Part shown: piece after piece, positions 2,155-62,700 of the stretch
How the letters are laid out: every line of letters starts with the position of its first letter
Numbering within the stretch: position 1 is the stretch's first letter
Assembly (NCBI RefSeq): GCF_004010195.1
Contig: NC_057752.1
Location: 12,774,381 to 12,838,380, forward strand
Source: Chiloscyllium plagiosum
Lineage: Eukaryota
Length of the DNA stretch: 64,000 bases
Reading direction: 5' to 3'
Program-made: the position numbers and the translations under genes
The notes under the pieces: model-generated
The model's input: the letters and a program-made list of their open reading frames with translations, nothing else
Told to the model about the DNA's origin: nothing
The model's database searches: none

Positions 2155-5100
2155 NNNNNNNNNNNNNNNNNNNNNNNNNNNNNNNNNNNNNNNNNNNNNN
2201 NNNNNNNNNNNNNNNNNNNNNNNNNNNNNNNNNNNNNNNNNNNNNNNNNNNNNNNNNNNNNNNNNNNNNNNNNNNNNNNNNNNNNNNNNNNNNNNNNNNN
2301 NNNNNNNNNNNNNNNNNNNNNNNNNNNNNNNNNNNNNNNNNNNNNNNNNNNNNNNNNNNNNNNNNNNNNNNNNNNNNNNNNNNNNNNNNNNNNNNNNNNN
2401 NNNNNNNNNNNNNNNNNNNNNNNNNNNNNNNNNNNNNNNNNNNNNNNNNNNNNNNNNNNNNNNNNNNNNNNNNNNNNNNNNNNNNNNNNNNNNNNNNNNN
2501 NNNNNNNNNNNNNNNNNNNNNNNNNNNNNNNNNNNNNNNNNNNNNNNNNNNNNNNNNNNNNNNNNNNNNNNNNNNNNNNNNNNNNNNNNNNNNNNNNNNN
2601 NNNNNNNNNNNNNNNNNNNNNNNNNNNNNNNNNNNNNNNNNNNNNNNNNNNNNNTACGGTGTGTAAGGACACACACGATACACTTCATACACATTACTGT
2701 GTGTCAGGACACACATGATACACTTTCTACACTTTACTGTGTGTAAGGCACACGTGACACACTTTATACACATTACTGTGTGTAAGGACGCATAGGATAC
2801 ACTTTATGCGAGTTATGGTGTGTAAGGACACACATGATACACTTCATACACATTACTGTGTGTAAGGACACATACGATACACCTTATTAACATTTCTGTG
2901 TGTGAGGAGACACGTGATACACTTTATACACATTACTATGTATAAGGACATATGTGATGCAGTTTATACACATTAGTGTGTGTAAGGATACGCGTGATAC
3001 ACTTTATACACATTAATGTGTGCAAGGATACAAGTGATACATTTTATACACATTACCGTGTATAAGGACAGATGTGGTACACATTATACATATGATTGTA
3101 TGGAAGGACACACGCGATACACTTTATACATTTTACTGTGTGTAAGGACACACACTATACATTTTATATGTGTTTCTGTGCGTAAGGACACACGTGATAC
3201 ACTTTATGCACATTACTGTGTGTAAGGACACATGCGATACACCTTATACACATTTCTGTGTGTGAGGAGACACGTGATACACATTATACACATTACTGTG
3301 TATAAGGATACATGTGATACATGTTATGCACATTAATGTGTACAAGGACACAAGTGATTCATTTTATACACATTACTGTTTGTAAGGAGAGATGTGATAC
3401 AAATTATACACATTACTGTGCGTGAGGACACACACAATACACTTTATACACATTACTGTGTGTAAGGACACACATGATACACTTTCTACACTTTACTGTG
3501 TGTAAAGCACACGTGATACACTTTATACACATTACTGTGGATGAGGATACACGTGATACATTTTATACACATTAATGTGTGCAAGGATACAAGTGATACA
3601 CTTTATACACTTTGCTGTGTGTAAAGAGAGACGTGATACACATTATACAGATTACTGTGTGTAAGGACACACGTGATGGACTTTATACACTTTACTGTGT
3701 GTAAGGAAACACACTATACATTTTATACGTGTTACTGTGCGTAAGGGCACACGTGATACACTTTATAAACATTCCTGTGTGTAAGGACACACAAGAAACA
3801 CTTTATACACATTACTGTGTGTAAGGACACACATGATACACTTCATACACATTACTGTGTGTAAGGACACATACGATACACCTTATACACATTTCTGTGT
3901 GTGAGGAGACACGTGATACACATTATACACATTACTGTGTATAAGGACACATGTGATATAGATTATACACAATACTGTGTATAAGAATACACGTGATACA
4001 TTTTATACACATTAATGTGTGCAAGGACACAAGTGATTCATTTTATACACATAACTGTGCATAAGGAGAGACGTGATACAAATTATACACATTACTTTGT
4101 GTGAGGGCACACACAATACACTTTATACACATTACTGTGTGTAAGGACACACATGATACACCTTCTACACTTTACTGTGTGCAAAGCACACGTGATACAC
4201 TTTATACATATTACTGTGTATGAGGACACACGTGATACAGTTTATACACGTTAGTGATACGTTTTATACATATTAATGTGTGCAAGGATACATGTGATAC
4301 GCTTTGTACACATTAATGTGTGCAAGGATACAAGTGACACATTTTATACACATTACCGTGTGTAAGGACAGATGTGATACACATTATACACATAAATGTC
4401 TGTCAGGACACACACGATACACTTTATACACTTTACTGTGTGTAAGGACACACACTATACATTTTATACATGTTACTGTGCGTAAGGACACACGTGATAC
4501 ACTTTATAACCATTCTCGTGTGTAAGGACACACATGAAACACTTTATACACATTACTGCGTGTAAGGATACACATGATACACTTTATGCACATGATTGTG
4601 TGTAAGGACACACGCGAAAGACCTGATACACATTTCTGTAAGTGAGGAGACACGTGATATAGATTATATACATTACTGTGTATAAGGATACACGTGAAAC
4701 ACGTTATATATGTTACTGTGGGTAAGCACACACAATACACTTTATACACATTATTGTGTGTAAGGACACAAACGATACACCTTATACACATTACTGTGTG
4801 TAAGGAGAGACGTGGTACACATTATATACATTACTGTGTGTAAGGACACACATGAAACACTTTATATATGTTATGGTGTGCAAGGACACATACTATACAC
4901 TTTATACACATTATTGTGTGTAAGGACACATGCAATACACTTTATACATATTACTGTGTGTAAGGACACAAGTGATACACTTTATACACATAACTGAGTG
5001 TAAGGACACACATAATACACTTTATACACATAACTGTGTGTAAGAAAACACACGTGATACACCTTATACACATTACCGTGTGCAAGGACACACGTGATAC

Positions 5101-8100
5101 TCTTTGTACACATTACTGTGTGTAAGGACGCACGTGATACAATTTATACACGTTACCATGTGTAAGGACACATGCAATCCACTTTATACACATTGCTGTG
5201 CGTAAGGACACACATGATAGACATTATACATATTACAGTGAGTAAAAACACACATAATACACTTTATACATATTGTGCGTAAGGACACACACAATACACT
5301 TTATACAGATTACTGTGTGTAAGGACACACGTGAAACAAGTTATATATGTTACTGTGGGTAAGGACACACAATACACTTTATACACATTATTGTGTGTAA
5401 GGATACAAACGATACACCTTATACACATTACTGTGTCAGGAGAGACGTGGTACACATTATACACATTACTGTGTGTAAGGACACACATGAAACACTTTAT
5501 ATATGTTACGGTGTGCAAGGACACATACGATACACTTTATAGACATTATTGTGTGTAAGGACACACGCAATACACTTTATACATATTACTGTGTGTAAGG
5601 ACACAAGTGATACAATTTATACACATAACTGAGTCTAAGGACACACATAATACACTTTATACACTTTACTGTGTGTAAGGACACACGTGATACGCGTTAT
5701 ACACTTTACTGTGTGTAAGGATACACACGTGATACACCTTATACACATTAATGTGTGCAAGGACACACGTGATACTCTTTGTACACATTACTGTGTGTAA
5801 GGACGCACGCGATACACTTTATGCATGTTACGGTGTGTAAGGACACACATGATACACTTCATACACATTACTGTGTGTCAGGACACACATGATACACTTT
5901 CTACACTTTACTGTGTGTTAGGCACACGTGATACACTTTACACACATTACTGTGTGTAAGGACACACGTGATACACTTTGTGCACATTACTGTGTGTAAG
6001 GACGCATACGATACACTTTAAGTGTGTTACGGTGTGTAAGGACACACACAATACACTTCATACACATTACTGTGTGTAAGGACACACGCGATACACATTA
6101 TAAACATTTCTGTGTGTGAGGAGAAGCGTGATACACTTTATACACATTACAGTGTATAAGGACACACGTGATGCAGTTTATACACATTAGTGTGTGTAAG
6201 GATACACGTGATACATTGTATACACAGTAATGTGTGCAAGGATACAAGTGATACATTTTATACACATTACCATGTGTAAGGACAGATGTGATACACATTA
6301 TACACATTACTGTGTGTAAGGACACACACGATACACTTTATACACATGACTGTGTGTAAGGACGCACACGATACACTTTATGCATTTTACGATGTGGAAG
6401 GACACACACAATACATTTTTACACTTTACTGTGTGTAAGGCACACATTATACCCTTTATATACATTACTGTGTGGAAGGACATACGTGACACACTTTATA
6501 CACGTTACTGCATGTAAGGACACAGGCAATACACTTTATACACATTACTGTGTGAAAGGACACACGCAGTACACTTTATACACTTTGCTGTGTGCAAGGA
6601 TACCCACATGATACACTTTATACACATTATTGTGTGTAAGGACACACATGAAACACTTGATATTTGTTACTGTGTGCAAGGACACACATGATAAACTTTA
6701 CACACATTACTGTGGGTAAGAACACACAATGCACTTTATACACATTACTGTGTGTAAGGACACACGTGATACACTTTATACACATTACCATGTGTAAGGA
6801 CACATGCAATACACGTTATACACATTGCTGTGTGTAAGGAGAGATGTGATACACATTATACACATTACTGTGTGTAAAGACACACATAATACACTTTATA
6901 CACATTACTGTGTGTAAGGACACACATGATACATATTATACACATTACTGTGTAAAAGGACACACACGATACACCTCATACACTTTACTGTGTGTAAGGA
7001 CACACGTGCTACACTTTATACACATTACTGTGTGTAAGAACACACATGATACACTTTATACATGTTACACACAGCAAGGATACATGTGATATATTTTATA
7101 CACATTACTGTGTGTAAGGACGCATACAATACACTTTATGCATGTTACGGTGTGTAAGGACACACATGATACACTTCATACACATTACTGTTTGTCAGGA
7201 CACACATGATACACTTTCTACACCTTACTCTGTGTAAGACACACGTGATACACTTCATATACATTACTGTGTGTAAGGACACACGTGACTCACTGTATAC
7301 ACATTACTCTGTGTAAGGATACACACGATATACTTTATACACATTACTGTTTGAAAGGACACAGTACACCTTATAAACGTTAGTGTGTGAAAGGATACAC
7401 GTGATACATTTTATACACATTTCTGTGTATAAGGACGCATACGATACACTTTATGCGTGTTATGGTGTGTAAGGACACACACGATGCACTTCATACACAC
7501 TACTGTGTGTAAGGACACACGCGATACACCTTATACACTTTCTATGTGTGAGGAGACACGTGATACACTTAATACACATTACTGTGTATAAGGACACACG
7601 TGATACAGTTTATGCATATTACGGTGTGTAAGGACACACACAATACACTTTCTACACTTTACTGTGTGTAATGCACTTTATACACTTTGATGTGTGTAAG
7701 GAAACCGACGTGATACACTTTACACACATTACTGTGTCAAGGATAAATGTGATACAGTTTATACACGTTACCATGTGTAAGGGCACATGCAATACACTTT
7801 ACTGTGCGTAAGGACACAGATGATAAACATTACACACATTACAGTGTGTAAGGACACACAATACACTTTATGCATGTTACTGTGTGTAAGGACACACGCG
7901 ATACACTTTATACACATTATCGTGTATAAGGCCACACGCGATACACCTTATACACATTACTGTGTGTAAGGACACATGTGATACATTTTTGTATACATTA
8001 CTGTGTGTGAGGTCACATGTAATACACTTTTGTATAAATTACTGTGTGTAAGGGCACATGTATACATGTGATACACACTACCGTGTTTTAGAACACATGT

Positions 8101-8492
8101 GAAACATGTGATACACATTAGTGTGTATAAGGACACACGATGCACTTTATACTTGTTATCATGTGTAAGGACAGAAGTGATACACTTTAGACACATTACT
8201 TTGTGTAATGACACATGTGATACACTTTATACATGCTACTGTGCGTAAGGACACACATGATACATATTACTGTGTGTAAGGATGCACATGATACTCTTTA
8301 CTGTGTGTAAGGACACACATGATAAACACTGTAAAGTGTATAAAGTGTAAGGACACATGATACATGTTACGGTGTGTAAACACATACATGATACACATTA
8401 TAGACATTACTGTGTGTAAGGATATGTGATACATGTTACTGTGTGTAAGGACACATATGGTATTCATTACTGTGTCTAAGGACACACGTGAT

Positions 8493-8785
8493 TTTCTCTT
8501 CAAAGATTTCAACCTACTGCGAATCCTCTTACAAGGATGCCTTCCCTGAAGAAGCTCTCTTTCTCCCTCTACAAAGGTTTCAGTGAGTCCCTCTCTCACT
8601 GCACCCCCCAGGTCATCTCCTCTGCACAGAAGCTCTTCAGCCACATTCGCCATTCCTGAAGAAGGGCTAATGCCCGAAACGTCGATTCTCCTGTTCCCTA
8701 GATGCTGCCTGACCTGCTGCGCTTCTCCAGCAACACATTTCCATCTCTGATCTCCAGCATCTGCAGACCTCATTTTCTCTTCAAA
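8493..8785 (+). mobile_element. Penelope-like pLTR monomer inserted in the satellite (ORF start, hammerhead, leader)
   Basis: TSD gacacacgtgat (8481-8492 and 8786-8797). Short ORF MPSLKKLSFSLYKGFSESLSHCTPQVISSAQKLFSH. Hammerhead core at 8656-8683. Confidence 0.8.
8651..8690 (+). ncRNA. Minimal hammerhead ribozyme motif
   Basis: CTGAAGA-a-GGGC-taat-GCCC-GAAAC-GTC; stem III is the self-complementary ACGT; stem I is weak. Confidence 0.7.
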
Positions 8786-10149
8786 GACACACGTGATATA
8801 CTTTATAACATTACTATGTGCTCGTTCATGTCTCTTTACATTGTATCCAGGACTCATATCATGTACTTTACACTATGCAATAACACACATGATGTATCTT
8901 ACAAACGTGCAAGAGCATGTATGGTGTTCTCTTAATTTCCCCTTTGAGACTTTGTCTGCCTCAGGAACAGTGGTATAAACAGATGTTACATTACAGTCCA
9001 AACCCCAGTAAATAGGGTTCATCCACAGTGAGGTGGTGGAGTGGGTGTTCCAGATGTGTGTCACCTACAACACACCCCATTAGGAATTCTCACCCAGCTA
9101 CGGTGGTAGAGTGGCATTTGGGGATCTGAATATCTGGTGGGCACTTTTGGGACCCTCTACCAGATGTGACATCCAATGAATATCATGTGGGTGGCAGTAT
9201 ACATGTGATCAGGGCATACGTAAGCCACTGCGTGTTGGGACCCCTGTTCTTTTTTTTAATTTCAAGGTAACTTTGCGTGACTCAGTATGATTGCCCTTCA
9301 AGCTTAGGCTGTGCACTTCTGAAACATCATGAAATAATCAAGTGCAGCAAGACGAGACGGCAAGACATTCCTGCGTAATATTCCAGATAGTGCCCAAAAT
9401 CCAACATAGTCATGTTTTATGTCAGTCCAAAATAACTTCTGGTAATTTGCTGCTTGCGATGACTTGTGGCGTTTGAAGAGATAATCTGTTCAGCTTGGTT
9501 TTATCAGTTATTTACACAAAAAAACCCAGCGAACACAAGGGTCAGAATGGAAGCACGCAGGGCTGTGGCTAAATGATACGAGTTTAGCAGGAACTATAAC
9601 AATTTGTTTTGCTGCAAATTCTGCTCACTGCAGAAAGGCACAGAGTCAAAACTAATTTTTATTTAAACGTGGAAAATTTCCAATCAGGGAAGAGGGTGGA
9701 GTGATGGGGTTTACAAGGAAAGGGGGTGGGAGATGTTTGTGGTTTTGACTGTTGCTCAGAGATTTTTTACAGTAATGTTCTGTCTACAAGCAGCAGAAAC
9801 TCTATTTGCTTTTTTGGAACACAATTATGTCTTCTGTATCCTTTCATGGGATTTGGGTTGCCCTTGGACTGAGTGACTTGGTCAGGCCATTTCGGTGGGC
9901 AGTTAAATGGATTGCTGCGGGTGTGGGAGAAAGGCAGGAGAATGGCACTAGCAAGTAGAGCCAGTGGAGGCACAGTGTACAGAATGGCCTCCGAATGTGC
10001 TGGAGCACTTCTGCGATTCTGGAGTCACATGTTGCCCAGACCAGATAAGGATGGTCAATGCGTTTTGTGAGGAAGGATGTGCCTTCAATCCTACATTCTC
10101 CACGCTCTCACACTTCTCCCGTCATGCTCAACTGCTCCCAGAGACCAAA

Positions 10150-25596: not shown

Positions 25597-25968
25597 ATGG
25601 AGGGTCAGTGCTGAGGGAATGATACACTGACAGAATGTCAGTACTGAGGGAATACCGCACTGTCGGAGGGTCAGTGCTGAGGTAATACCGCACTGTCGGA
25701 GGGTCAGTCCAGAGGGAGTGCCGCACTGTCGGAGGGTCAGTGCAGAGGGAGTGCCGCACTGTCGGAGGGTCAGTACTGAGGGAGTGCTGCACTGTCAGAG
25801 GGTCAATACTAAGGGAGTGCTGCACTACCGGAGTGTCAGTACTGAGGGAGTGCCACACTGTCGGAGGGTCAGTGCTGAGAGAGTGCCGCACTGTCGGAGG
25901 GTCAGGACTGAGGGAGTGCCACACTGTCGGAGGGTCAGGACTGAGGGAGTGCCACACTGTCAGAGGTG
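25597..25968. repeat. 36-bp GC-rich minisatellite (about 10 units): GGAGGGTCAGTGCTGAGGGAGTGCCGCACTGTC-like
   Basis: Directly visible tandem units. Confidence 0.95.
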
Positions 25969-26610: not shown

Positions 26611-29256
26611 TTGTTCCAGTCCCAGCACTTGACTGTGTGAATTTCAGCCCTTGTCTTCTTTCGGGAATTAATGGATTTTTGCTGGGGCATCAACTTGTGA
26701 TCTAGCTCAAACCCTTCATCCCTCCCAACTTACATCAGGAGGACTTTTGAGGATCAGAGTGGAGTGCATCTGGAGTGTGGACTTTTTTGGAGAGTTGCTG
26801 TTCTCTAGACGCTATGATGTGGCAAGGCACAGGACCACGGGGCTGAGAGAAGATTTCAAAGGAACTTGAACCTTGTTTGATTGCTGTCATTTGGCTGATT
26901 GAAAGCTCCAAGCGTTTGTGAGCCAGGATTACCTTTTGCAGAAGAAGGGGTTGCCTCCAGCAGGGACACTGTGAATATCCCAGACCTCAATATGAAAGCC
27001 CCTCAGAGGAGCCCTGGCAGGGCAGAACAGATGCTAGGAGCCATGGCAGATATGTTGACATCTTTTGCTATACCCAGCCAGCAGTGGGTAGGTGATCATT
27101 TCAGTTCAGCTTTCGCTCTCTCTCTCTCGGTTGCAAGCCCCAGTTGTAGGCAAAGGGCTGAACATCGGTTGCCAACGCCCTCCAGCATTGCACTTGGAAG
27201 TCTCCCGGATTTAAAGGAGCCACTCCCGGTGCTTGCTGCAAATAATGTCAGGCAGAAATACCATGAGATTGAAGTTTCTTGCTAACTCCACCCTCCTATT
27301 TACTTGAACAGAATTAGGTTGGAAGGGGGAAAGGATATTTGACCAGGCGATGGGGAGACGGAATGTGATGAGACCTCCAGGAATCAGTCCTGATCAGAGT
27401 TGGTAACTCTCAGGTTGACTGGTCACTGGGTGAACATGCTTGACGATGTGGCACGTGAAGGTGAGGACTGGCACTGGACCTGGCTGTGCTGCCCACCCAG
27501 GTCAAATAGCCTTTGGCTACCTTCACTGTGCGGGCTGTCTCCATCGAGTGCCCAGCCTGTGGAAGCTAAGTCCAGCAGCTGAGAGAGCCATCAAGAATGG
27601 GGGTGGAATGGGGTAAATTGAGGGTACACAGATATAAAACAACAGGGTCTTTGTAAAATCTACTCTGTGTGGGTTTAATGCAGGGAGGAATGTTGCCTGG
27701 TTGCATGGGAGTTATGTCTGCCTTTGGCAGTCTGAAGTACTGTGGGAAAGCGGACCCGGAAAGCTCAGCTCGGTTGTTCCACTGGGCATTTGCTATAGCT
27801 GCATCAAATAGTCTCTTTAATAAATTCATTGGGTGATGTGTGCAGGAGAGAGGGTTTGGGGGGGGCACATGGTTTTGATTTGCCCCTTGAGACCAGAATC
27901 CATTGGCCTGCCATCCAGGCACAGCCAAACTAAACAATTCCGATCACAGATTGCCAAATACTCACTGGCTTTTAAGCATCCGTTCCAAGTAAAGGGTAGG
28001 GATGGCAACGTACCCTAATTTGGAAGGGGCTAGGTGATGGATTCAAATGGTTTAATGGAGGGGCTGGGTGGCATATATAGGAAGTATTTGTCATCTTGGC
28101 ACTGTTGAACATGGAACTTACTGAAATGCCGACTGTTGCTAAGCTTTTTTTCCCCCCTACAACAATTAGTTAAAAAGATTGCTTAGCTTGGGAAAACGTG
28201 AACAGAATTGTTCTTCTAATTCCATCTTGGCCTCCTGTCTATCCCTGATTTTAATTTCACCCCCCCCCCAATGGTGGTCATGCCTTTACCTACCAGGACC
28301 CCAACCCTGTCTGTGTCTCTGCCTTGTTCTCCTCCTTTAAGTCCCTCCTCAAATCCTACCTCTTTGTTCAAGCTTTAGCTGTCTAATTGAATTACTGTTT
28401 ACAGTATATGGCTCAGTGTAGTACTTTTTCAGTCACTCCAGCGGAACATTTGGGGGATTTCTTTGCTGCATTGAAGGTGCTGTGCAAATGCAGTTGGTTG
28501 TTATTGTGGCGCTGACTGTACCTTTTATATCAAATCCTGGGAAAGTGTGGTTGGGTGTCACAGTGAGGTTCAAACTGGGGGTCCATGTTATCGGGAGTAA
28601 ACCTTTCCTTTTACGAATGGTTGGGAGGGTGTTCCACAACTGTAATAAGTTGCATTCCAATTGTGCCTTAAGGTGCTGCTTTATAAATGAAAAATTGACA
28701 CCGAGCCAATTAAGGAGATACGAGACTGAAAGGTTGGTCAAGGAAGTGTCTTAAAGGAGATAGAGAATTGCAGGGGTTTTTTTCAGAAATACCTGAGCGC
28801 AGGGCCTAGGTAGCTGAAGGCATGGCTGCCGATGGTGCACTGATTAAAATCAGGGATGTTCCAGAGGCCAGAATTGGAAAGAAATGCAGGACACCAATTA
28901 ATCCAGTTCCCAGTGGGAGTGGCCTCAGAGTCTGTAAATACACCAGATGTGACACTGGGCAATAGATTTCTCGAGTTGCTCCAATGTTACCACACTTTTT
29001 TGACAAAAGATCATGAGTCTCAAACCCCAGAATTTCTCAGCGGACTGTGCCTGTTGACTTTCAAAATCTGCGCTCAAAGTCATAATTACCAAGCCCCCCT
29101 CCCTGAAGGAATTCCGCAAGATTGTATGACTTTGAAAAGTGTTTATTGGTGTTGGGGTTAACGTGCTGTTGAGATTGGGGAGACTGAGGTATGTTGTGGG
29201 GATGGTATTGGCAGACTATCAACATAAGAAGAGCTTAATGCCTACTATCAGGAAGA

Positions 29257-29403
29257 CAGGCAGGAGCCTGGAAGAACACAGCAAGCCAGTCAGGACTGAA
29301 GAAGGATTACACATGAAATGTCGACTTCTCCACCTCCTGATGCTGCCTGGCTTGCTGTGTTCTTGCCTGTCTTTTGGGTTCCAGCATCTGCATTTTTTTG
29401 TTG
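29257..29403 (+). mobile_element. Degenerate hammerhead mini-element with short 5' fold-back
   Basis: TSD ctatcaggaaga (29245-29256 and 29404-29415); ctgaagaagg...gaaatgtc core. Confidence 0.7.
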
Positions 29404-29454
29404 CTATCAGGAAGAGCTTGGTTCGCTTGGACTAAACCAACAAGATTTAATGGC

Positions 29455-29716
29455 TGGGGTGTTACAAGAGGTGCGGTGGCAAAGTCTCTCTGCGTAGTCT
29501 GTGTTGTAGGTCGACCTAAGTGGGTTCGTGACCGTAATCCTTTCGGGATCTTTCCTACTTGCCTGCATTCCTGTAGAAACTTGATGTCTGTGTCGATATA
29601 TGCAATCTTCTTGGAGATCCTCCCCACTTTAAGCCGGCGGTTAGTGGTGTCGATAGTAGTCATGATTTGGAGATGCCGGTGTTGGACTGGGGTCCAACAC
29701 CGGCATCTCCAAATTG
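29455..29716 (-). mobile_element. Penelope-like ORF N-terminus with terminal hairpin
   Basis: MTTIDTTNRRLKV...IKFLQECRQVGKIPKGL. TSD agatttaatggc (29443-29454 and 29717-29728). Confidence 0.75.
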
Positions 29717-31499
29717 AGATTTAATGGCAGCATTAATGAGTTTATTTGAGAAGTGCATTGACCAATCAGAGTCTGCTTGCCTGGTTTGAATTCAAACGAT
29801 GGCCTGACAGTCAACTGATCCTTCGCGCTCCATGGTTAGGGTTCTACCAATCTGAGACCACTTGCTAACCAATCAACAGCCTGTTTCATGCAGTGGAAAT
29901 TGTTGGTCTCTTCGAGATTTGGTATTCTTGCAATTCTGTCCTGATGAGGACAAGATCAAATGCTTCAACCTTCTGCTGTTTTAATTCCTCAATGCTGAAG
30001 CGTCATGCTACCAAATGACTTTTTTGAAAAGTTCTTTTGTGGTGTTGTCACTGTCGTGGTTTATAAGCATTTTGTGCATAGCAAGATTCCACCAGCAACA
30101 AATAAGGTCACGACCAGATCGTCGGTCATCAGTGATGTTGACACTGGGAGAGGACACCCCATCTCTTTTGAAATGGGTAGCTGAGAGGGCCTCAGTTTAA
30201 TACTTCACTCGACCAAGCAACACTCTCTCTGTTCTGCAGTTGGAATTCTCGGCCAAGTTGAGGTGTTTAATTCTCTGCAGCAGGATTTAAATGCACAACC
30301 TCCTGTGCCAGAGGTGAGAGTGATACTGTGGCTAATGCAATTCGAAGAGATCGACCTAGCGGTGGCAAAGGGCTGACAGTTAATGTGTAAGGCAGGGATT
30401 AGACAGATGTTGGTGTTTGACCTTGCTTTGGGCCCACTCTCAGATCTGTGCCTTCAGTTGGGAAGGAGGGGGTGGATTGCTGCACTAACAGGGAGCGCTT
30501 TGTGAGAAATCATGGGCAAACAGCCTATAAACTTTCCAGCCATCCCAATTAATTTTGATTTTTCACAGCACATTCCCTGAGAAGGCAGCTCCCTTTGGGC
30601 AGTGTGGGATCTGATGTATAATCATTGGATAGTTTATCCTGAGTGCTTCCAAAAACAAACTACAAGGGCTGTGGGTGGTGCAATAGTTTAGCAGTTTGTT
30701 TCCAGCTCTGGCTGGCGAGTGCTAGATTTATATTTTTAAAAAATTCATTCACAGGATGAGGGCATTGCTGGGTAGGCAGCATTTATTGCCCATCCCTAAT
30801 TGCCCAGAGGTCAGTTAAGAGTCAACCAGATTGCTGTGGATCTGGAGTCACATGTGGGCCAGACCAGGTAAATATGGCAGTTTCCTTCCTGAGAGGTCAT
30901 TCGTGAACCAGATGGGATTTTCCGAATAATGGTTTCATTAGACACTTAATTCCAGATTTCTTTTTAATTAATAAATCCATCTGCTGTGGTGAGACTCAAA
31001 CCCAGAACTTTATCTGGGTCCTTGGATTAACAGTCTAGTGATAATACCACTAGACCAGCACCTCCCCAATTAAGCTGTAACAGTCGGACCATGAAGTGTT
31101 TTTTTTTCTATAGCTACTTTCATGACCACAGGACATACATTGGCTGCAAAGAGCTTTGGAAGTATTTTCGAAGTGTTGCCACTGCCGCTACAGAGGAAGC
31201 ATGGCAGCCAATTTATGCACAGCACACTCCTAAAAACAGCAATCTGATAATGATCAGGAAAAACAACACCTTGAGTTTAAATTGCGTATTTATGTAAAAA
31301 GCCATTACAGAGGTAGAATGAAAATTGGGACTGAACCAAATAAAGAGTGTTTAAAATCAAACAAACAAGAATAGGACTTATACAGTTAATTTTTTTTTTA
31401 GATTAGATTAGATTAGATTACTTACAGTGTGGAAACAGGCCCTTCGTGAAAATTGGGACTGAACCAAATAAAGAGTGTTTAAAATCAAACAAACAAGAA

Positions 31500-34905: not shown

Positions 34906-35940
34906 GTGGGAGACCGTACACATGTAGTGTGTCGGGATTCAGCCACTGCCCAAATATATACCCGGCAGCCCTCTGCTCCTCGGTGTGGCATCTCCCTCTG
35001 CTGCACCTTTAAAACTGATCTTGTACCCTCCCTTCCCGCAGCCCTCACCTCTCTCCGTCCTCTCTCCTCACTGCTCTAAAAATGAAGGCCCGACTCCTGA
35101 GATAAGTCCCTTTTTAAGTGGGAAAACCTACCCTTCCCGGCAGCCCTTGGTTCTCTCCGCCCTCTCTCCTCGCGACTCTGTATTATACAGTATTTATATA
35201 GCTGGTCTATGTTGTATAAGATAATGATTTTGAAGGGGTTGCTGTTTATGTTACATTGGTTCCACCCATTCTACCAATGTCACACACAATCTGTGAGTGG
35301 AGCCAATGAATTTTACTCTTCCTTTGAGAGGGGAGATGGATCTGTACCAGTTCTCTCAGGGGCCAGGAATTTTGCCTGATCAAATGTAGTTGGCCTTATT
35401 CCAATAAACTTGTTATCTAAGAACAGCCTCTTCTGGAGATACTCTGTAATGGTGTATCCTCTAAACCTAAGCAACGCAAAGGCCCAACGCAAAGCAAAGA
35501 CAAAGAAGGGTTGATGGGTGTGGACCACCTCAAACAACCCCATCCAGTACCACACACCGACATAAGGTGTCAGGAATGATCATCTGGGGAAATGCCACAG
35601 TCTAGCTCGATTTCTGGCCAACAGTAACGCCAAGGATGTTGATAGCAGGGGATTCAGCGACAGTAACGCCTTTTAATGTCAAGCAAAGATGGATTAATTC
35701 TGTGAAGGTTGAATTTTGCCAGATCTCACTAAGTAAATGTTTGTGTGAATCGTTTATTCTGAAAGGATTTTGGAATAGCGATATCGTAAACCCTCCTCTG
35801 TGACATGTCCCTTTCTGTGGCAGCAAAATAACGTGTATAAAGAGGTTTGAATGATTCTTGATAGAAGCAGAGACCTAAGGCCACATTCCCTGTGTACATT
35901 CCAGCTCTGTCACCTATGCTGGATACCAATAAGGTCTGTT

Positions 35941-37624
35941 ATGGTTCTGTTCGCCGAGCTGGGAATTTGTGTTGCAGATATTTCGTCCCCTGTCTAGGTG
36001 ACATCCTCAGTGCTTGGGAGCCTCCTGTGAAGCGCTTCTGTGATCTTTCCTCCAGCATTTGTAGTGGTTTGAATCTGCCGCTTCCGGTTGTCAGTTCCAG
36101 CTGTCCGCTGCAGTGGCCGGAATATTGGGTCCAGGTCGATGTGCTTATTGATTGAATCAGTGGATGAGTGCCATGCCTCTAGGAATTCCCTGGCTGTTCT
36201 CTGTTTGGCTTGTCCTATAATAGTAGTGTTGTCCCAGTCNNNNNNNNNNNNNNNNNNNNNNNNNNNNNNNNNNNNNNNNNNNNNNNNNNNNNNNNNNNNN
36301 NNNNNNNNNNNNNNNNNNNNNNNNNNNNNNNNNNNNNNNNNNNNNNNNNNNNNNNNNNNNNNNNNNNNNNNNNNNNNNNNNNNNNNNNNNNNNNNNNNNN
36401 NNNNNNNNNNNNNNNNNNNNNNNNNNNNNNNNNNNNNNNNNNNNNNNNNNNNNNNNNNNNNNNNNNNNNNNNNNNNNNNNNNNNNNNNNNNNNNNNNNNN
36501 NNNNNNNNNNNNNNNNNNNNNNNNNNNNNNNNNNNNNNNNNNNNNNNNNNNNNNNNNNNNNNNNNNNNNNNNNNNNNNNNNNNNNNNNNNNNNNNNNNNN
36601 NNNNNNNNNNNNNNNNNNNNNNNNNNNNNNNNNNNNNNNNNNNNNNNNNNNNNNNNNNNNNNNNNNNNNNNNNNNNNNNNNNNNNNNNNNNNNNNNNNNN
36701 NNNNNNNNNNNNNNNNNNNNNNNNNNNNNNNNNNNNNNNNNNNNNNNNNNNNNNNNNNNNNNNNNNNNNNNNNNNNNNNNNNNNNNNNNNNNNNNNNNNN
36801 NNNNNNNNNNNNNNNNNNNNNNNNNNNNNNNNNNNNNNNNNNNNNNNNNNNNNNNNNNNNNNNNNNNNNNNNNNNNNNNNNNNNNNNNNNNNNNNNNNNN
36901 NNNNNNNNNNNNNNNNNNNNNNNNNNNNNNNNNNNNNNNNNNNNNNNNNNNNNNNNNNNNNNNNNNNNNNNNNNNNNNNNNNNNNNNNNNNNNNNNNNNN
37001 NNNNNNNNNNNNNNNNNNNNNNNNNNNNNNNNNNNNNNNNNNNNNNNNNNNNNNNNNNNNNNNNNNNNNNNNNNNNNNNNNNNNNNNNNNNNNNNNNNNN
37101 NNNNNNNTCGAATGAGACCATGGTTTCTTCCTTGTCTATGTGTATATTTCTGATGATGTCCAAGAATTCCTGTGTTGATTGTATAGAGTGTCTGGATCCG
37201 CTGATCAGGTGTTTCAGTTTCTGCTGTAGTTCTTTCGCCAGTTTGTGTGATGGTGTCCCTGGTAGTGATACTCTGGGTCTGAGTGGGATGTCTGGTTTGT
37301 GCACTTTAGGTAGTCGTCTGGGGGTGTTGTTGCTTTCAGGTTTCATTCTTTGTAGGTCAAACCTGGTTATCTGTCTGTTTTTTTTGTAGGTTCCTCAGTG
37401 CGTTGTTTATCCTATTGGTGAGCTGTGGGGGTGGGGTCAAACTCCCTCTTTTGGTAGGTGTTGGTATCTGCAAGTAGTTGTTGCGCTTTCTGGATGTACT
37501 CTGCTTTGTCCTCTGAGGATGTCACCTAGACAGGGGACGAAACGTCTGCAACACAAATTCCCAGCTCGGCGAACAGAACCACAACAACGACCTCCCGAGC
37601 TACAAATCTTCGCACAAACCATGA
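35941..37624 (-). mobile_element. Penelope-like element (RT to GIY-YIG C-terminus, centre in gap) with inverted terminal repeat
   Basis: LPKVHKPDIPLRP...MVSF and REFLEAWHS motifs. 16-bp TSD accaataaggtctgtt (35925-35940 and 37625-37640). Hammerhead cores at 35973-36013 (-) and 37513-37550 (+). Confidence 0.92.
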
Positions 37625-37939
37625 ACCAATAAGGTCTGTTCTGTGTGCACTACAAGCATCTTGTACTAACTCAAAAGTTGCTATTGGGAGGCAGAGAAAA
37701 TTGGAGGTTGATGAACAGTTGCATTTTAACACTGACCAAGGAAAAGCCTCTGATAAAGAAGCTGGTAGTAGCAGTCTGGGTAGGAATCTGAATGTTGTGG
37801 AGCAAGATTGTGAAGGATTTGAAAGGAGGATAAGGATCCTGACATTGGTTCACCCTGAGATGAATCATCACCTTCCAAATCTCATGCAAAACACAGGGTG
37901 TAATCTTATTAGGTTCAGAGTGACGTGGGTTATAGCAAG

Positions 37940-41479: not shown

Positions 41480-43320
41480 TGGGAAAGGGGGAGGTGCAAT
41501 GAGACCTGGGTGCCCTTGTACACCAGTCACTGAAAATAAGCCTGCAGGGGACAGCAGGAGGTGAAGAAGGTAAATGGGATGTTGGGTCTTCACAGTGAGA
41601 GGGTTCGAGTACAGGAGCCAAGAGTGTGGTGCTGGAAAAGCACAGCTGGTTAGGCACATTCGAGGAGCAGGACAATCGACGTTTTGGTGGGACTGGGGTA
41701 AGGTGGGGGGAGGGGAAGTGAGGAAACTGGTGAAATCCACATTGATGCCATGGGGTTGGAGGGTCACAAGGTGGAAGATGAGTTATTCTTCCTCAAGGCA
41801 TTGGGTGGTAAGGGAGTGGTGATGGAGGAGGCCCAGGACCTGTATGTCCTTGGCAAAGTGGGAGGCAGAGTTAAAGTGTTTGGCCACGGGGTGGTGGGAT
41901 TGGTTGGTGCGGGTGTCCCAGAGATGTTCTCTGAAGCGCTTTATAATTAAGCGTCCAGTCTCCCCAATGTAGAGGACTCTGCATCAGGAGCAACAGATAC
42001 AGTAAATGAGGTGTGGAAATGCAGGTGAAACTTCGATGGATGCGGAAGGCTCCTTTGGGGCCTTGGATGGAGGTGAGGGGGGAGGTGTGAGCGCAGGTTT
42101 TGCAATTCCTGCAGTGGCAGGGGAGGGTGGGTTGTTAGAGGATGTGGACCTGACAATTAGTCATGGAGGGAATGGTCTTTACGGAAAGCGGATAGGGTGG
42201 GGAGGGAAAGATATCTCTGGTGGTGGCGTCCGTTTGTAGGTGGCGGAAATGGCGGAGGATGTTACGATGTACACGGAGATTGGGGTGGAAGGTGAGGACC
42301 GGGGTGGGGGTGGGGTGGCTGGTTCTGCGATTGTTGCGGTTGGAAGTGTGCGGTTCGAGGGCGGAGGTGCAAGATGTGGATGAGATGTGCTGGAGGGCAT
42401 CATTAACCACGTGGGAGGGGAAGTTGCAGTCTTTAAAGAAGGAGGCCATCTGGTGTGTTCTGCGATGGGACTGGTCCTCCTGGGAACAGATGAGGTGGAG
42501 GAATTGGAAATAAGGGATAGCATTTTTGCAGGAGGCGGGATGGGAGGAGGTGTAATGCAAGATGGCTGTAGGAGTCAGTGGGTTTGTAGAAAATGTCAGT
42601 GTTGAGTTGTTCACCGTTGATGGAGATGGAGAGGTCCAGGAAGGGGGGAAAAGGTGTCAGGTGGTCCAGGTAAATTTAAGGTTGGGGTGAAATGTGTTGG
42701 TGAAGTTGAGTGGAAGTACAGGAGCAGAGATGTCTTGCTGCAGTTGTACAGGGCTTTGATGATACCACACCTGGAGTATTGTGTGCAGTTTGGGTCTTCT
42801 TATCTGAGGAAGGGTGTTCTGGTGATGGAGGGAGTACAGCAAAGGTTTCCCAGACTGATTCCTGGGATGGCAGGACTGTCGCATGAAGAGAGACTGGATT
42901 GGTTTGGATTATATTCACTGGAGTTTAGAAGAATAAGGGGGCGAGATCTCATAGAAACCTGTAAAATTCTAACAGGACTAGACTGAGTAAACACAGGAAG
43001 GATGTTCCTGATGACCAGGGACTCTAGGACCAGGGGGTCACAGTTTAAGGACACAGGGTAGACCATTTCGGACTGAGCTGAGGAGGAATGTCTTCACCCA
43101 GAGAGTGGGGGAGCCTGTGGAATTCTCTGCCACAGCAAGTGCTTGAGACCAAAACCTTGGTTTTAAGGAGTTAGATATAATTGTTAGAGTTAAAGGAATC
43201 CAAGGCTATGGGATGAAAGCAGGAACAGGGGACTGTGTTGGATGATCAGACATGATCATATTGAATGGTGGGGCAGGCTCAAAGGGCTGAATGGCCTACT
43301 CCTGCTCCTATGTTCTGCGT
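41480..43320 (+). mobile_element. CR1 LINE 3' portion interrupted by a Penelope-like element
   Basis: PHLEYCVQFGS motif and tail; colinear with the 61590-62700 copy. Confidence 0.88.
41619..42714 (-). mobile_element. Penelope-like element, RT C-terminus plus GIY-YIG endonuclease
   Basis: Minus strand LIYCI...LYIGETGR (~41950-42010) and TLQPHGINVDFTSF. TSD agtacaggagc (41608-41618 and 42715-42725). Confidence 0.88.
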
Positions 43321-56267: not shown

Positions 56268-56436
56268 GGAGAAAGTGAGAACTGCACATGCTGGAGATCA
56301 GAGTCGAAAAGTGTGGTGCTGGAAAAGCACAGCAGGTCAGGCAGCATCCGAGGAGCAGAGGAGTCGACGTTTCAGGCATAAGTCCTTCCTCATTCCTGCC
56401 TGATCTGTGCTTTTCCAGCGCCACACTTTTCGATTC
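56268..56436 (-). mobile_element. Hammerhead mini-element with partial fold-back
   Basis: Same leader as 23832-23953; degenerate core; 56395-56436 is an inverted copy of ~56303-56343. Confidence 0.8.
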
Positions 56437-57704
56437 CTGTCTTGCCAATCCCACCAAACAAGCGTCGGGAACGTCGCCATGGAAACTAGAGTGGGTATCT
56501 GGCAGATTTACCCTCTCTACCTGTTCTGAGTGGCCTTCTTGGCGGACACTGGGCACCAACATCTCAGCGCCTTCCTCCATGGGCACCAACCTCACCCACC
56601 ACACATCCATGGACATTGGCATCTGACCTGTACCAACCTCAAATTAGGATATGGTGAGAGATCTTACCAGGCCTCAGGGCGAGAAACCCTCCAAGAAAAC
56701 ACATCACAATTCGGACGCAAGTTGAATCTTGCGTTTTTTGGCTATGCTGCAGCAGAGGACGTTATTTCAAAATGAAACTTTGTTTGTGTGAACGAGGAAG
56801 CAGTGATTGTTTTTGTCTGCATGGGAGCAGAGTGTGCCTGTATTGCAACTGGTGTTTATATATTTGTCATGTGCACCATGGACATAGCAGGGAAGTGATG
56901 GCCCAATGATATTATCTTTAGACTTAGAAGCTCAGAGAATGTTCTGAGGACCTGGGTTTGAATCCTGCCACAGTAGGTGGTAGAATTTGAATTTAATTTT
57001 TAAACAAAGTCTTAAAATTAAAATCTAATTAAAATGTTGAATTTAGAGCATAATGTTGACCATGAATCCATTGTTGATTGGTGGGGAAAACCCATTAGGG
57101 GTTCACTAATGCCCTTTAGTTAAGGAAACAACTGCTGCAATGTAATTGACTCTTAACTGCCATCTGGGATGGGCATAAATGCTGTCTAGCCCCAGCGATG
57201 CCTTCAACCCATGAATGAATTTAAATAAAAAATACAGATATCAGTGTTAGCTTTAGCCTTTGCTATATTCTTGGTGCAGTTTTACTTGCATCTCTTCCAC
57301 CATTTAATTTCTTTGTCTGCCCATAGCCCTCAGTCAGTGCCAGCAAACAAACTTTGCCTTGCTATCATAACAAAGCTCAGAACAGGATTTGTAGCCATAT
57401 TCAGAAAGCATTTGGCATAAGAACCTGGGAAAGCTGGTGCTGCTCATGCTCACATAAAACCGAAAAACTGTGTGGACGCTGGAGATCTGAAACCAACACC
57501 AAAGATAGAAATTGCTGAAGAAACTCAGCAGGTCTGGCAGCATCTATGGAGAGAGAAAAACAAAGGTAGCGTTTTGAGTTTAGTGACCCTTTGCCTGAGC
57601 TAGAAGCAGTGAGGAGGTGGTCCCTGTCACTTCAACACACCAATGCGTTCCCTGGCCAATATTCTGATTTCTGGTTTGCGGCAATGCTCCACCAATTATC
57701 TTTG

Positions 57705-58575: not shown

Positions 58576-59165
58576 GTAAGGGAGATTGTCTCTGTCTCTG
58601 CTGTTGTTGATGTATTTCACAGACCTCCGGCCTCCTGGTTCCATCCTGTGTTTGTGTTGGCCTGGAGTACGAACAAGGATTCTAATACAGGACCAAAATT
58701 AGGATTCCAAAACCTAAAGGCCTGCAGCAAGCCAAGCTTGCCTTCAGTTGGGGATAGACCTGTGCCAATCTCCTTGGCTATGGTCCATCTCCCTGTTGAG
58801 ACCATGATCCTGGGTAGGGAATGTTTTTGCGCAACAGAACCCATAACTAGCTCAGTGCAACATCCTACACCAGTCACATTCTTTGCTCCAATTCTGCAGT
58901 GGAGGTTTGCTCTTGCCCAGGGCAGAATTTGATTTGGAGTCAAGCAATTATTGCAATCCAGTAAAAGGTGGCTGTGTTTTGCGCATTGGCACATGCGTTC
59001 AGACGTGTGTGTATGCATACGTATGTATCTGTGTTCGTCAGTGTGTGCGCACGCTCGCGTGTGTGCATATGTACATGTGTAGTAGAAGATGAAGTAGACG
59101 TTGGGACACTTGGCACCATTGTCTATTAAGTCCTTTTTTTGTTTGTATGGTGAAGATCCATGTGA

Positions 59166-59315
59166 GCTGAAACTTTATTGCTGGAACAATAAAGAAGGGC
59201 CTGTGCCCGAAACGTCGAATCTCCTGTTCCCTGGATGCTGCCTGACCTGCTGTGCTGTTCCAGCAATAAAGTTTCAGCTTTGATCTCCAGCGTCTGCAGA
59301 CCTCACTTTCTCCTC
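59166..59315 (+). mobile_element. Hammerhead mini-element with 23-bp 5' inversion
   Basis: 14-bp TSD gaagatccatgtga (59152-59165 and 59316-59329); aagaaGGGCctgtGCCCGAAACGTC. Confidence 0.88.
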
Positions 59316-60949
59316 GAAGATCCATGTGACGCATGTTTCAAAATGTCTGTAGGTTTGGATCTGCCCATTCATGAGCTGGAGGTTTGAGATCGAGAATGCT
59401 TCCATTTTCCCGCTGACACTGTCCCCAGCACAAATCTCAGACAGCAGCTCGATCCTTTAGCCCTTCCGAGTTTTAGATTTTATTGTCATGTGTACTCAAG
59501 CGTAGATGTTTAGTGAAAAGTGTATAATGTTGCCAGACGCAGTGCCATCTTAGGTACCAAGGTACAAAAAACTTTACAAAATAGTAAGAGATGTGAGAGT
59601 TAAAAAGTTTTGCATTATTTCATAGAACAGTAGAAAAATAAAGAAATAAGGTAATAGTTAATATTAATGTCCTTTGTAGTTTAAGCTAGGCATCCCCCAT
59701 TCCCCCTCTGCCCCCTTGATTGGGCCAGGAGGCTCCCAGACTTGAAGATTAATCTCCAGGGGACTGCTGTTCTGGAATCCAAATGAAACAGATTATCCTT
59801 GTTATTTTCTTTGACCATTGTCTTCACCCAGTAGAAAAAGATCAGTTGTGGAAAATGGAGTCTGGCTTCCATCATCCAATTGGGTAATGCAGCCAATTAA
59901 CGTAGGGAGACAGTATGTCACAAGGCGGACATGTTGGCTGACTGATGGCTGAAGTGAAGGGGCAAGATGTATGAGGAAATCTCCAGGAATTGCCTTAATC
60001 CCAGTTGGCAATCCAAATCACCCCCCCCCCCCCCCCCAGAACTCAACTTCTGATCGTTCTATCACCTCTGAGTCCAGTGCTCATCGTTATCATCAATTTC
60101 TCTCTCTTCTCAGGCATTATCTTTCCCTCCTTTACACAAATACCTTTGATCTTCATTATGAAGCTGACAAGGTCATGTGCTTGTTATGTATCCAGGTTTT
60201 GTTGTGACTGCTCCAGGAGACAGTGGAACAATGTACCGGTCACATGATAACTCCTTCAGAGGAAGATACACAGAGGCTGCAAAGGCATGAAGGCAGATTA
60301 TGGGTGGACAAGAACATGGGAGATGGAATATAACAGGACAACATGAAGCTATCCACTTTGGCAGGAAAGCTACTGATTAACTGGGAGATGTTGGTATTTA
60401 GAGGAATCTAGATGCCCTTACATATGTATCACACGCGCAGGTACAGCAAGCTATTAGAAAGTAAAATAGAACATTAGTTTTTGTTACAAATGAATTGGAG
60501 TATAACAGTATAGAAGTCCTACTGCAATTATACTGAGCATTGGTACTCATTGGTACTGTGTATTGTTTTAGCATCTGAGCTGGAAGAAGTGTATGAAAGT
60601 TCACTACATCGCATTAATGATCCAGTAATAAAACGCTCGGTTAACTCTGTGGGTTCATTTGTTTAAAACAGCAAAATACACGATCAGTTATGAACAGGCA
60701 TTACAGCAAAACAACTGAGTTTGATATGTGCAACTTGCAGAGCCACAGCAGACTGTCTACACACAGCACATGGAGTGCTTTCTAGTTGAACTTTCTTAAT
60801 AGCAAGGTGCAAAAATGGCACACAAGCCTGATACCTGTGAAAGAGATGATGAGGCTATACCTGTGTTTTAATATAGGCTTCACCTGTTCTCCAGATAAGC
60901 TCAGGCCACACTTTAAACTATTTGTTTAACTGGTGTTTATAAGCGAGGG

Positions 60950-61589: not shown

Positions 61590-62700
61590 ATGTGTAATAT
61601 CTCCAAGTTTGCAGATGATACAAAGCTGGAAGGGAGGGTGAACTGTGTGGAGGATGCAGAGATGCTTCAGTGTATTTTGGACAGGATGAGTGAATGGGCA
61701 AGTACATGGCAGATGCAGAATATTGTGGGTAAATATGAGATTATCCACTTTGGAAGCAAAACCAGGAAGGCAGATTATTCTCTCAATCGTGACAGATTGG
61801 GAAAGGGGGAGGTGCAGTGAGACCTGGGTGCTCTTGTACACCAGTCACTAAGTAAGCCTGCAGGGGGCAGCAGGAGGTGAAGGAGGTCAATAGGATGTTG
61901 GCTGAAAATGTGTTGCTGGAAAAGCGCAGCAGGTCAGGCAGCATCCAAGGAACAGGAGAATCGACGTTTCGGGCATAAGCCCTTCTTCAGGAAGGGCTTA
62001 TGCCCGAAATGTTGATTCTCCTGTTCCTTGAATGCTGCCTGACCTGCTGCGCTTTTCCAGCAACACATTTTCAGCTCTGATCTCCAGCATCTGCAGTCCT
62101 CACTTTCTCCTCCTATAGGATGTTGGGCCTTCATAGTGAGAGGGTTCGAGTACAGGAGCAGGGATGTCTTGCTGCAGTTGGACAGGGCCTTGGTGAGACC
62201 ACACCTGGAGTATTATGTGCAGTGTGGGTCTCCTTATCTGAGGAAGGATGTTCTGGTGATGGAGGGAGTACAGCAAAGGTTTCCCAGACTGATTCCTGGA
62301 TGGCAGGACTGACGTATGAAGACAGACTGGATCAGTTAGGATTATATTCACTAGACTTTAGAAGAATGAATCCTCTAAAATTCTAACAGGACCAAATAGG
62401 GTAAACACAGGATGGATGTCCCTGAGGACCAGGGGGTTCAGAGCCAGGGTCGACAGTCTAAGGGTACAGACTGAGCTGAGGAGAAATGTCTTCACCCAGA
62501 GAGTGGGGAGCCTGTGGAATTCTCTGCCACAGAAAGCATTTGAGGGTGAAATATTGAATATTTTCAAGAAGGGGTTAGATATATTTCTTAGAGCTAAAGG
62601 GATCAAAAGGTATGGGCTGAGAAATGGGAACAGGGGACTGAGTTGGATGATCGTATTGAAGGGTTGAATGACCTCCTCCTGCTCCTATTTTCTGTGTTTT
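61590..62700 (+). mobile_element. CR1 LINE RT 3' portion interrupted by a fold-back mini-element
   Basis: ISKFADDTKL motif and CR1 tail. Confidence 0.9.
61902..62114. mobile_element. Fold-back hammerhead mini-element
   Basis: 12-bp TSD ataggatgttgg (61890-61901 and 62115-62126). ~85-bp inverted arms. Intact minus-strand CTGAAGA..GAAACGTC at ~61957-61992. Confidence 0.92.

What the first reader, a model, noticed from the sequence alone, without database searches (positions are those of the whole stretch)
8481..8797. Circularly permuted PLE terminal-repeat monomer with terminal redundancy
Seen: inside a 12-bp TSD the order is ORF start, hammerhead, leader. The 16-mer attttctcttcaaaga occurs at both ends (8491-8506 and 8772-8787), and the leader end matches the 3' end of the mini-elements. 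Inference: the insert reads as slightly more than one turn around a ~281-nt unit. This is expected from reverse transcription of a circular, retrozyme-like RNA, or of a tandem repeat transcript.
Basis: partly seen in the sequence, partly recalled or inferred. Interest (0 to 1): 0.72.

Follow-up and report, generated by a model that had tools for sequence, protein, structure and literature searches.

The report
Circularly permuted shark Penelope mini-insertion
A 300-base piece of a shark jumping gene was pasted in with its halves swapped and its ends overlapping, probably because the copying enzyme started inside the RNA and hopped from one end to the other; this hints at how these elements build their end repeats but does not show an RNA circle.

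Summary
The structure is real. A 12-bp TSD in a 40-bp satellite flanks: tail end, 37 codons of a Penelope-like (PLE) ORF start, a minimal hammerhead, leader, and the same tail end again. The 16-mer overlaps the TSD by 2 nt on each side, so 12 nt lie strictly inside. Depth arithmetic suggests an empty site in a related species.

It is not the usual partial tandem, where the 3' UTR precedes the hammerhead. It also fails the retrozyme test: one hammerhead, no tandem, unstructured circle, and a junction about 33 nt upstream of the cleavage site. Public runs list nine other ORF-start-to-hammerhead joints among 15 shown (45 hidden). Their donors vary (8559-8576), they land at one edge (8649-8652), some carry extra letters, and solo copies begin at that same edge.

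Best reading (0.45): reverse transcription starts inside the tail, reaches the RNA 5' end, jumps to the 3' end of a short PLE RNA, and stops on its own start. Rivals: internal deletion (0.25), covalent circle (0.2), filler (0.1). No circular RNA is shown, and circles as more-than-unit PLE templates were already proposed in 2014. Variant of a known kind.

The parts
2655..8492 (+). 40-bp satellite array (degenerate at its right end) that received the insertion
   Evidence: TRF: period 40, 140.7 copies at 2655-8264; degenerate units to 8492
8481..8492 (+). Left TSD, 12 nt; its last 2 nt also match the element (microhomology)
   Evidence: empty site inferred in organism B
8491..8506 (+). First copy of the 16-nt tail end (terminal redundancy; 12 nt strictly inside the TSDs)
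8507..8536 (+). Leader between the tail and the ATG of the PLE ORF
   Evidence: ATG at 8537; multicopy in public runs (depth table)
8537..8648 (+). First 37 codons of the PLE ORF, broken off 112-114 nt after the ATG
   Evidence: 95% identity to P0001 residues 1-37, 68% to P0002; the N-terminal family is linked to PLE-type RT motifs in P0004 (motifs recognised by eye)
8649..8650 (+). Junction of ORF start and hammerhead edge; at least one base fits neither the codon implied by P0001 nor the 3' UTR consensus; a 5-nt word present on both sides is not collapsed
   Evidence: sequence, P0001, loose-end consensus
8651..8687 (+). Minimal type I hammerhead: core 8656-8662, extra A 8663, 4-bp stem II 8664-8675, 8676-8683 with palindromic positions 15.2-16.2, stem I 3 of 4 pairs; predicted cleavage after 8683
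   Evidence: read by eye against PMC4209133; stem II forms in the fold; no Rfam hit
8688..8740 (+). Rest of the pLTR; one cluster of family 3' ends lies at 8736-8740
   Evidence: loose ends in all four runs; 3 of 10 window arms end at 8737-8752
8741..8787 (+). About 40-nt 'tail'; main family 3' end at 8779; second copy of the 16-mer at 8772-8787
   Evidence: loose ends behind 8779 in all four runs
8786..8797 (+). Right TSD, 12 nt; its first 2 nt also match the element

Best explanation
A dead-on-arrival insertion made by a shark Penelope-like element (probably Neptune clade) in one target-primed event on a short, linear 5' piece of its own RNA. (1) The RNA begins at the front edge of the hammerhead, about 8652 (inferred from where copies end). 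(2) The protein nicks the satellite with a 12-nt stagger and starts reverse transcription inside the RNA at the tail, 8785-8787, helped by a 2-nt match (TSD and match shown; internal initiation taken from the lizard element PAc). (3) It copies about 135 nt to the RNA 5' end, where most events stop (solo copies) or fold back (inverted pairs). (4) Here it jumped to the 3' end of an RNA broken about 113 nt into the ORF, most simply the same molecule (inferred). (5) It copied about 160 nt back through the ORF start, ran 12-16 nt into the stretch it had already copied, and was sealed to the other target strand at a 2-nt match (inferred). The ribozyme takes no part: the uncleaved RNA is the template.
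For: 5' ends of 7 of 10 window arms map to 8649-8659, 3 to 8665-8674, none to the cleavage site 8683/8684. Loose ends in all four runs cluster before 8651-8653 (6 rows shown per run, 859 hidden). Of the 15 joints shown (45 hidden), 9 join ORF-start donors at 8559, 8560, 8561, 8564, 8565, 8568, 8571, 8574 and 8576 to 8649-8652. The 8574 joint is seen in both organisms and in one raw RNA read with 48 nt on its shorter side. Extra letters of 2, 4 and 16 nt lie between some sides. For R2 RT, template jumping needs untemplated additions (PMC8857657, passages). Random sequence would rarely mimic these joints: P of 3e-11 to 3e-9 per position for the 23-29-nt sides and 4e-17 for the 48-nt side. Both 16-mers carry a T at the position where 94% of depth in X2 shows C (8780/8499), which fits one template read twice. 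A random 5' end would fall in these 16 nt about 6% of the time. PAc initiates internally at two sites that bound the tail, needs RNA downstream of them, and uses mainly uncleaved RNA (PMC11167929). The shark family also shows two 3'-end clusters about 40 nt apart.
Against: Template jumping is not reported for PAc in the main text of PMC11167929; its authors invoke multi-copy read-through transcripts. The joint table gives no contig letters. Most short sides are under 30 nt at 85% likeness, which the tool flags as unreliable. 8545-8555 resembles the hammerhead start, so some 8559-8565 joints may be misplaced duplications. Five of the nine rows are marked 'between: not known', and two joints carry 5 and 26 nt of 3' UTR, which fits deletion as well. 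Joints landing further upstream in the 3' UTR cannot be seen on this reference, which biases toward a fixed landing site. I could not see where the other jointed copies begin, so the one-turn stop rests on this locus alone. The last 9 nt before the junction match the 3' UTR consensus at 6 of 9 places, so homology may have helped. LINE-1 chimeras are said to arise by RNA ligation before copying, not by jumps. The RNA start at 8652 is inferred, and no pile-up of RNA starts was found (table 6).
Confidence: 0.45

Rival explanations
1. Internal deletion: a full-length one-turn PLE copy (tail-ORF-3'UTR-pLTR-tail) lost nearly all of its ORF, either by RT skipping on a long tandem transcript or by later microhomology-mediated deletion in DNA.
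For: Partial match (6 of 9) between the bases before the junction and the 3' UTR consensus. Two other joints keep 5 and 26 nt of 3' UTR. Microhomology-mediated deletions are common in rotifer PLEs (PMC3846280, passages). A tail at either end of an insertion is described (PMC8557442, passages).
Against: A 5-nt word present on both sides of the junction (8644-8648 and 8651-8655) is kept twice rather than collapsed. Nine shown joints land at the hammerhead edge and one inside the pLTR (8752). That edge is also where solo copies begin.
Confidence: 0.25
2. Covalent circle: a 281-nt circular RNA, cut by two hammerheads from a tandem source locus or ligated end to end, was copied for one turn plus 12-16 nt.
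For: It explains the permutation, the redundancy and the shared rare base equally well. The unit size fits animal retrozymes (150-450 bp; PMC7229834, passages). Circles as more-than-unit templates were proposed for PLEs (PMC4209133). Retrozymes are reported in one chondrichthyan genome (bioRxiv 10.64898/2026.07.22.740005).
Against: One minimal hammerhead, of a type with no detectable activity as a monomer. No tandem at the locus. Junctions lie about 33 nt from the cleavage site and vary between copies. The circle folds like shuffles (46 of 200 as stable). No listed joint repeats a unit of this kind. Back-splicing is unlikely: the loose-end consensus shows no AG just before the landing site.
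Confidence: 0.2
3. Filler or second insertion: an ordinary solo pLTR insertion was sealed with a patch copied from another PLE molecule (genomic DNA or a second RNA), or a second cDNA entered at the ATT at the pLTR edge.
For: PAc cuts its own DNA at an ATT near the ORF-pLTR junction and starts RT 111-118 nt into its ORF. Here ATT sits at 8652-8654 and the donor at +112 to +114, which may be coincidence. Earlier unchecked notes describe other fillers at hammerhead edges in this genome.
Against: No other ORF-start copy exists in the sequenced part of the window (three N gaps). There is no second TSD. The patch beginning inside the insert's own last 16 nt, with the same rare base, would be chance.
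Confidence: 0.1

Closest known systems
Insertions of endonuclease-positive Penelope-like elements (pLTR, 30-40-bp tail, partial tandems; Craig et al. 2021 PMC8557442; Arkhipova et al. 2013 PMC3846280)
   Same: pLTR with hammerhead, about 40-nt tail, TSD with end microhomologies, tail sequence at both ends; inverted pairs among the neighbours
   Different: The ORF start, not the ORF end and 3' UTR, precedes the pLTR; the 5' end lies inside the insert's own tail
PAc (Poseidon of Anolis carolinensis; Frangieh et al. 2024, PMC11167929)
   Same: Two 3'-end sites that bound a tail; copies keep the whole hammerhead, so uncleaved RNA is the template; an ATT at the pLTR edge
   Different: In PAc the ribozyme overlaps the start codon and initiation is inside the ORF; here the ends lie upstream of the ATG. 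No jump or permuted product is described in its main text
Animal non-LTR retrozymes (Cervera and De la Pena 2020, PMC7229834; Li et al. 2026, bioRxiv 10.64898/2026.07.22.740005)
   Same: Unit of about 280 nt, type I hammerhead, PLE-derived, non-autonomous, long TSD
   Different: Single minimal hammerhead, no tandem, variable junctions away from the cleavage site, no circular RNA shown
Template jumping by R2 RT (Pimentel et al. 2022, PMC8857657)
   Same: End-to-end continuation with a few untemplated bases
   Different: Shown in vitro for a non-LTR RT; not shown for a PLE RT in the papers read

Membership tests
Penelope-like element (EN+) derivative | ORF with telomerase-like RT and GIY-YIG endonuclease in the parent element | tested here: inconclusive
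   The insert has only 37 codons. The N-terminal family reaches P0004, which carries PLE-type RT motifs by eye. A related window element (80% alike in the pLTR) carries RT-end, CxxC and GIY-YIG-like motifs by eye. Pfam gave no RT or GIY-YIG hit.
Penelope-like element (EN+) derivative | Minimal type I hammerhead in the pLTR (core, extra base after position 9, G10.1-C11.1 pair, palindromic 15.2-16.2) | tested here: met
   All four read in 8652-8687 against PMC4209133. Rfam has no hit. Cleavage not tested.
Penelope-like element (EN+) derivative | Optional 30-40-nt tail beyond the pLTR | tested here: met
   3' ends cluster at 8736-8740 and 8779 in four runs and in window copies
Penelope-like element (EN+) derivative | Insertion by target priming (TSD) | tested here: met
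   12-nt TSD; 6 of 8 other insertions examined have 12-17-nt edge repeats
Neptune clade | RT phylogeny; zinc finger between RT and EN (diagnostic recalled, from no call) | tested here: inconclusive
   A CxxC motif precedes the EN in the related element at 41.7-42.66 kb; no tree was built
Standard partial-tandem PLE | ORF 3' end and 3' UTR upstream of the pLTR | tested here: not met
   The ORF start is upstream; the usual upstream sequence is the 3' UTR
Non-LTR retrozyme | Tandem repeat with a hammerhead in at least two consecutive units | tested here: not met
   One hammerhead in the insert; no tandem row over it. A source array elsewhere could not be searched.
Non-LTR retrozyme | Canonical type I hammerhead with helix III | tested here: not met
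   Minimal form, no loop III, stem I 3 of 4 pairs. Li et al. 2026 also accept minimal forms.
Non-LTR retrozyme | Unit of 150-450 bp with GC under 50% | tested here: inconclusive
   281 nt; GC 50.5%
Non-LTR retrozyme | Fixed unit shared by a family of monomers and multimers | tested here: inconclusive
   Nine shown joints differ in donor point; this exact junction is collinear with the reference and is not tabulated
Non-LTR retrozyme | Expressed as circular RNA | not testable with these tools
   The only raw RNA run laid is poly(A) single-cell, 2 in 100 read

The most novel reading that the evidence does not exclude
PLEs routinely start reverse transcription near the 5' end of their RNA and then cross from the RNA's 5' end to a 3' end, by a jump or on a ligated circle. 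Solo stubs, permuted minis like this one and ORF-bearing copies with a 3' pLTR would then be outcomes of one reaction that differ only in where the RNA ends. The 8559-8576 donors (61-78 nt past the main start site) would mark the edge of the protein's footprint on trimmed RNA, and retrozyme units would be born from such products.
Probability: 0.25. Interest if true: 0.72.

Novelty: new variant of a known kind. Interest (0 to 1): 0.42.

Why it matters
How PLEs make their pLTRs, tails and tandems is open: circles were proposed in 2014 and multi-copy read-through transcripts in 2024. Permuted mini-copies with variable ORF donors and one landing edge are a natural readout of this step. A genome with this many stubs should hold enough of them to tell a jump, a circle and a deletion apart by counting. 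This single locus is a dead insertion with no sign of function.

Tried and rejected
Own-genome search: no genome is held. Pattern scans for the ORF start (metagenome and viral contigs) and for the hammerhead (metagenome, genome and viral contigs) gave 0 hits; these collections are not expected to hold shark DNA, so this is no evidence.

A protein search with the open antisense frame, meant to catch other copies spanning the junction, gave 4 candidates, none significant. Rfam: 0 hits at gathering score in the window; one chance lncRNA match near the insert. Pfam: no RT or GIY-YIG family for any peptide tried (5, 2, 2 and 3 proteins).

No RNA holder was on record. I laid 4 of the 24 listed runs. 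The RNA run shows no reads on the unique flanks (0 to 0.05 depth), 96 in 100 reads running on into unlike sequence, and at most 2 of 8 reads with the reference base at 8649. It is poly(A)-selected and 2 in 100 were read, so it says nothing on circles. Non-C depth at 8649 cannot count copies of the junction, because it is also present in organism B, where the site looks empty.

Folding: linear z -0.79, circular z -0.70; no rod-like structure. A 'goes back' joint across the 16-mer was rejected as a test for circles, because the ordinary element also reads from leader into ORF start (joints 8777 to 8515 and 8786 to 8574 fit this). The second hammerhead-like word at 8545 is not a ribozyme: 8546 is a near-private base (0.02% of depth) and no GAAA box follows at the right spacing.

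Look-ups of earlier findings by sequence, by words and for 'circularly permuted' returned nothing.

Full report
Setting. The window is repeat-rich animal DNA. The closest named proteins to the insert's ORF come from the carpet sharks Hemiscyllium ocellatum and Chiloscyllium punctatum. No whole genome is held, so genome-wide questions were put to public runs: 24 listed, 4 laid on 8411-9010 at 85% likeness.

Observation. The 12-nt TSD (8481-8492, 8786-8797) and the 16-mer (8491-8506, 8772-8787) are exact. The 16-mer shares 2 nt with each TSD copy, leaving 12 nt of redundancy inside; 21 of 2000 shuffles gave a repeat that long anywhere in the core, none longer than 14. The TSD word is part of a 40-bp satellite, but taking out the insert restores a satellite unit. 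In organism A a contig spans the left junction with no differences. In organism B a contig aligns only from 8786, and the half depth in bin 8471-8490 fits an empty site (inferred). TSDs of 12-17 nt are normal here: 6 of 8 other insertions examined have them.

Anatomy. 8537-8647 encodes residues 1-37 of P0001 (95% identity), whose sequence goes on where the insert breaks off. A 160-residue piece of P0001 found 4 proteins among 847 candidates; one, P0004, runs on into PLE-type RT motifs (by eye; no Pfam hit). A related element at 41.6-42.66 kb has RT-end, CxxC and GIY-YIG-like motifs followed by a pLTR about 80% like this one. The Neptune label rests on a recalled diagnostic. 8652-8687 has the features of the minimal PLE hammerhead of Cervera and De la Pena, with predicted cleavage after 8683. 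Family 3' ends cluster at 8736-8740 and 8779 in all four runs, which marks a tail of about 40 nt. The insert is therefore: tail end, leader, ORF start, junction, hammerhead, pLTR, tail.

Not the standard partial tandem. The sequence that normally precedes the hammerhead is a 3' UTR: loose ends before 8651 in the RNA run give one consensus (224 reads, agreement 0.7). None of the other window copies has the ORF start upstream, and the ORF start occurs once in the window.

Is it one-off? The exact junction cannot be counted. The type of junction recurs. Of 15 joints shown (45 hidden), 9 link donors at 8559-8576 to 8649-8652. The other 6 are one skip into the pLTR (8752), one local go-back, three strand changes and one leader-to-ORF link. 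Letters between the sides include 2, 4 and 16 nt that are not 3' UTR, and 5 and 26 nt that are. The 8574 joint appears in both organisms and in a raw read with a 48-nt short side. Random flanks would give about 0.6 to 6 matches of 23 nt over the whole ORF start for 1e5 to 1e6 copies, spread evenly rather than clustered, and fewer for longer sides; none was found in 114,705 background positions. Caveats: the contig letters are not shown, most sides are under 30 nt, five rows are marked 'between: not known', 8545-8555 resembles the hammerhead start, and landings further upstream are invisible on this reference.

Where templates end. 7 of 10 window arms begin at 8649-8659, 3 at 8665-8674 and none at the cleavage site; loose ends in the runs agree. 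Earlier unchecked notes on this genome say the same; I count them as leads only. Frangieh et al. found that PAc initiates internally at two sites bounding the tail, needs RNA downstream of them, uses mainly uncleaved RNA and cuts at an ATT.

Mechanism. Internal start at the tail, run to the RNA 5' end at the hammerhead edge, transfer to the 3' end of a broken RNA, stop on its own start site. Shown: the order of parts, the TSD, the end matches, the clustering of ends and the variable donors. Inferred: the RNA start, the jump, the same molecule and the collision stop. Both 16-mers share a base that 94% of depth lacks, and a 5-nt word on both sides of the junction is not collapsed; both favour end-to-end joining on one template, modestly. 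A covalent circle gives the same DNA, but a ribozyme-closed circle needs a tandem source with one fixed junction, and nothing here shows that. The unit folds like shuffles. An internal deletion of a full-length copy stays a serious rival. The RNA data are inconclusive.

Literature seen. PMC11167929: parts 1-2 of 4 of the text and a word search; supplements not read. PMC4209133: parts 1-2 of 4; it already proposes ligated circles as templates for more-than-unit reverse transcription. bioRxiv 10.64898/2026.07.22.740005: parts 1-3 of 5; it derives animal retrozymes from pLTRs and reports families in one chondrichthyan (mean 363 bp); its supplements were not seen and may hold a unit like this. PMC8557442, PMC3846280, PMC7229834 and PMC8857657: passages only. 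Six searches listed no title or abstract start describing ORF-start-to-pLTR-edge junctions in PLEs. The library lacks most subscription papers, so this is weak evidence of novelty.

Verdict. Observation confirmed with a small correction; interpretation partly supported. It works like a PLE target-primed insertion with an end-to-end transfer. It is not filed as a retrozyme, since the tandem criterion was tested and not met. New variant of a known kind, interest 0.42.

Noticed in passing
window 61890-62126 and 1711-1922: Head-to-head inverted pairs of the same pLTR with 12- and 16-nt TSDs; one arm ends at the pLTR end and the other carries the tail, and they meet at the hammerhead edge.
   Followed up: partly
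window 59152-59329 and 56269-56450: Solo copies with a short inverted pLTR piece at their 5' end; 59152-59329 has a 14-nt TSD and ends at the same place as the focal insert.
   Followed up: partly
window 35940-37630: A second PLE family (Poseidon-like by recalled motifs) on the minus strand across an N gap, with a 3' pLTR whose hammerhead is mutated in the GAAAC box and an inverted pLTR at 37507 with an intact-looking motif.
   Followed up: no
window 41600-42660 (minus): 5'-truncated PLE with RT end, CxxC motif and GIY-YIG-like region, frameshifted; its pLTR lacks the 5' half of the hammerhead.
   Followed up: partly
window 29217-29720: A hammerhead stub of a third family with an inverted piece and a 12-nt edge repeat, next to an antisense PLE-like ORF start.
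   Followed up: no
window 17351 (minus), 21098, 41025: Further minimal-hammerhead families; two copies share a C-rich 3' UTR upstream.
   Followed up: no
joints 8686 to 8652 and 8777 to 8651: Joints from inside the pLTR also land on the hammerhead edge, i.e. short direct duplications with 1-2 extra letters.
   Followed up: no
P0003 (Rhincodon typus model): A gene model for an acid phosphatase ends in the N-terminal region of this PLE family, either an exonised insertion or a prediction error. P0001, named mucin-2-like, also begins with this PLE ORF start.
   Followed up: no
window 25599-25966: 33-bp minisatellite, 11 copies.
   Followed up: no
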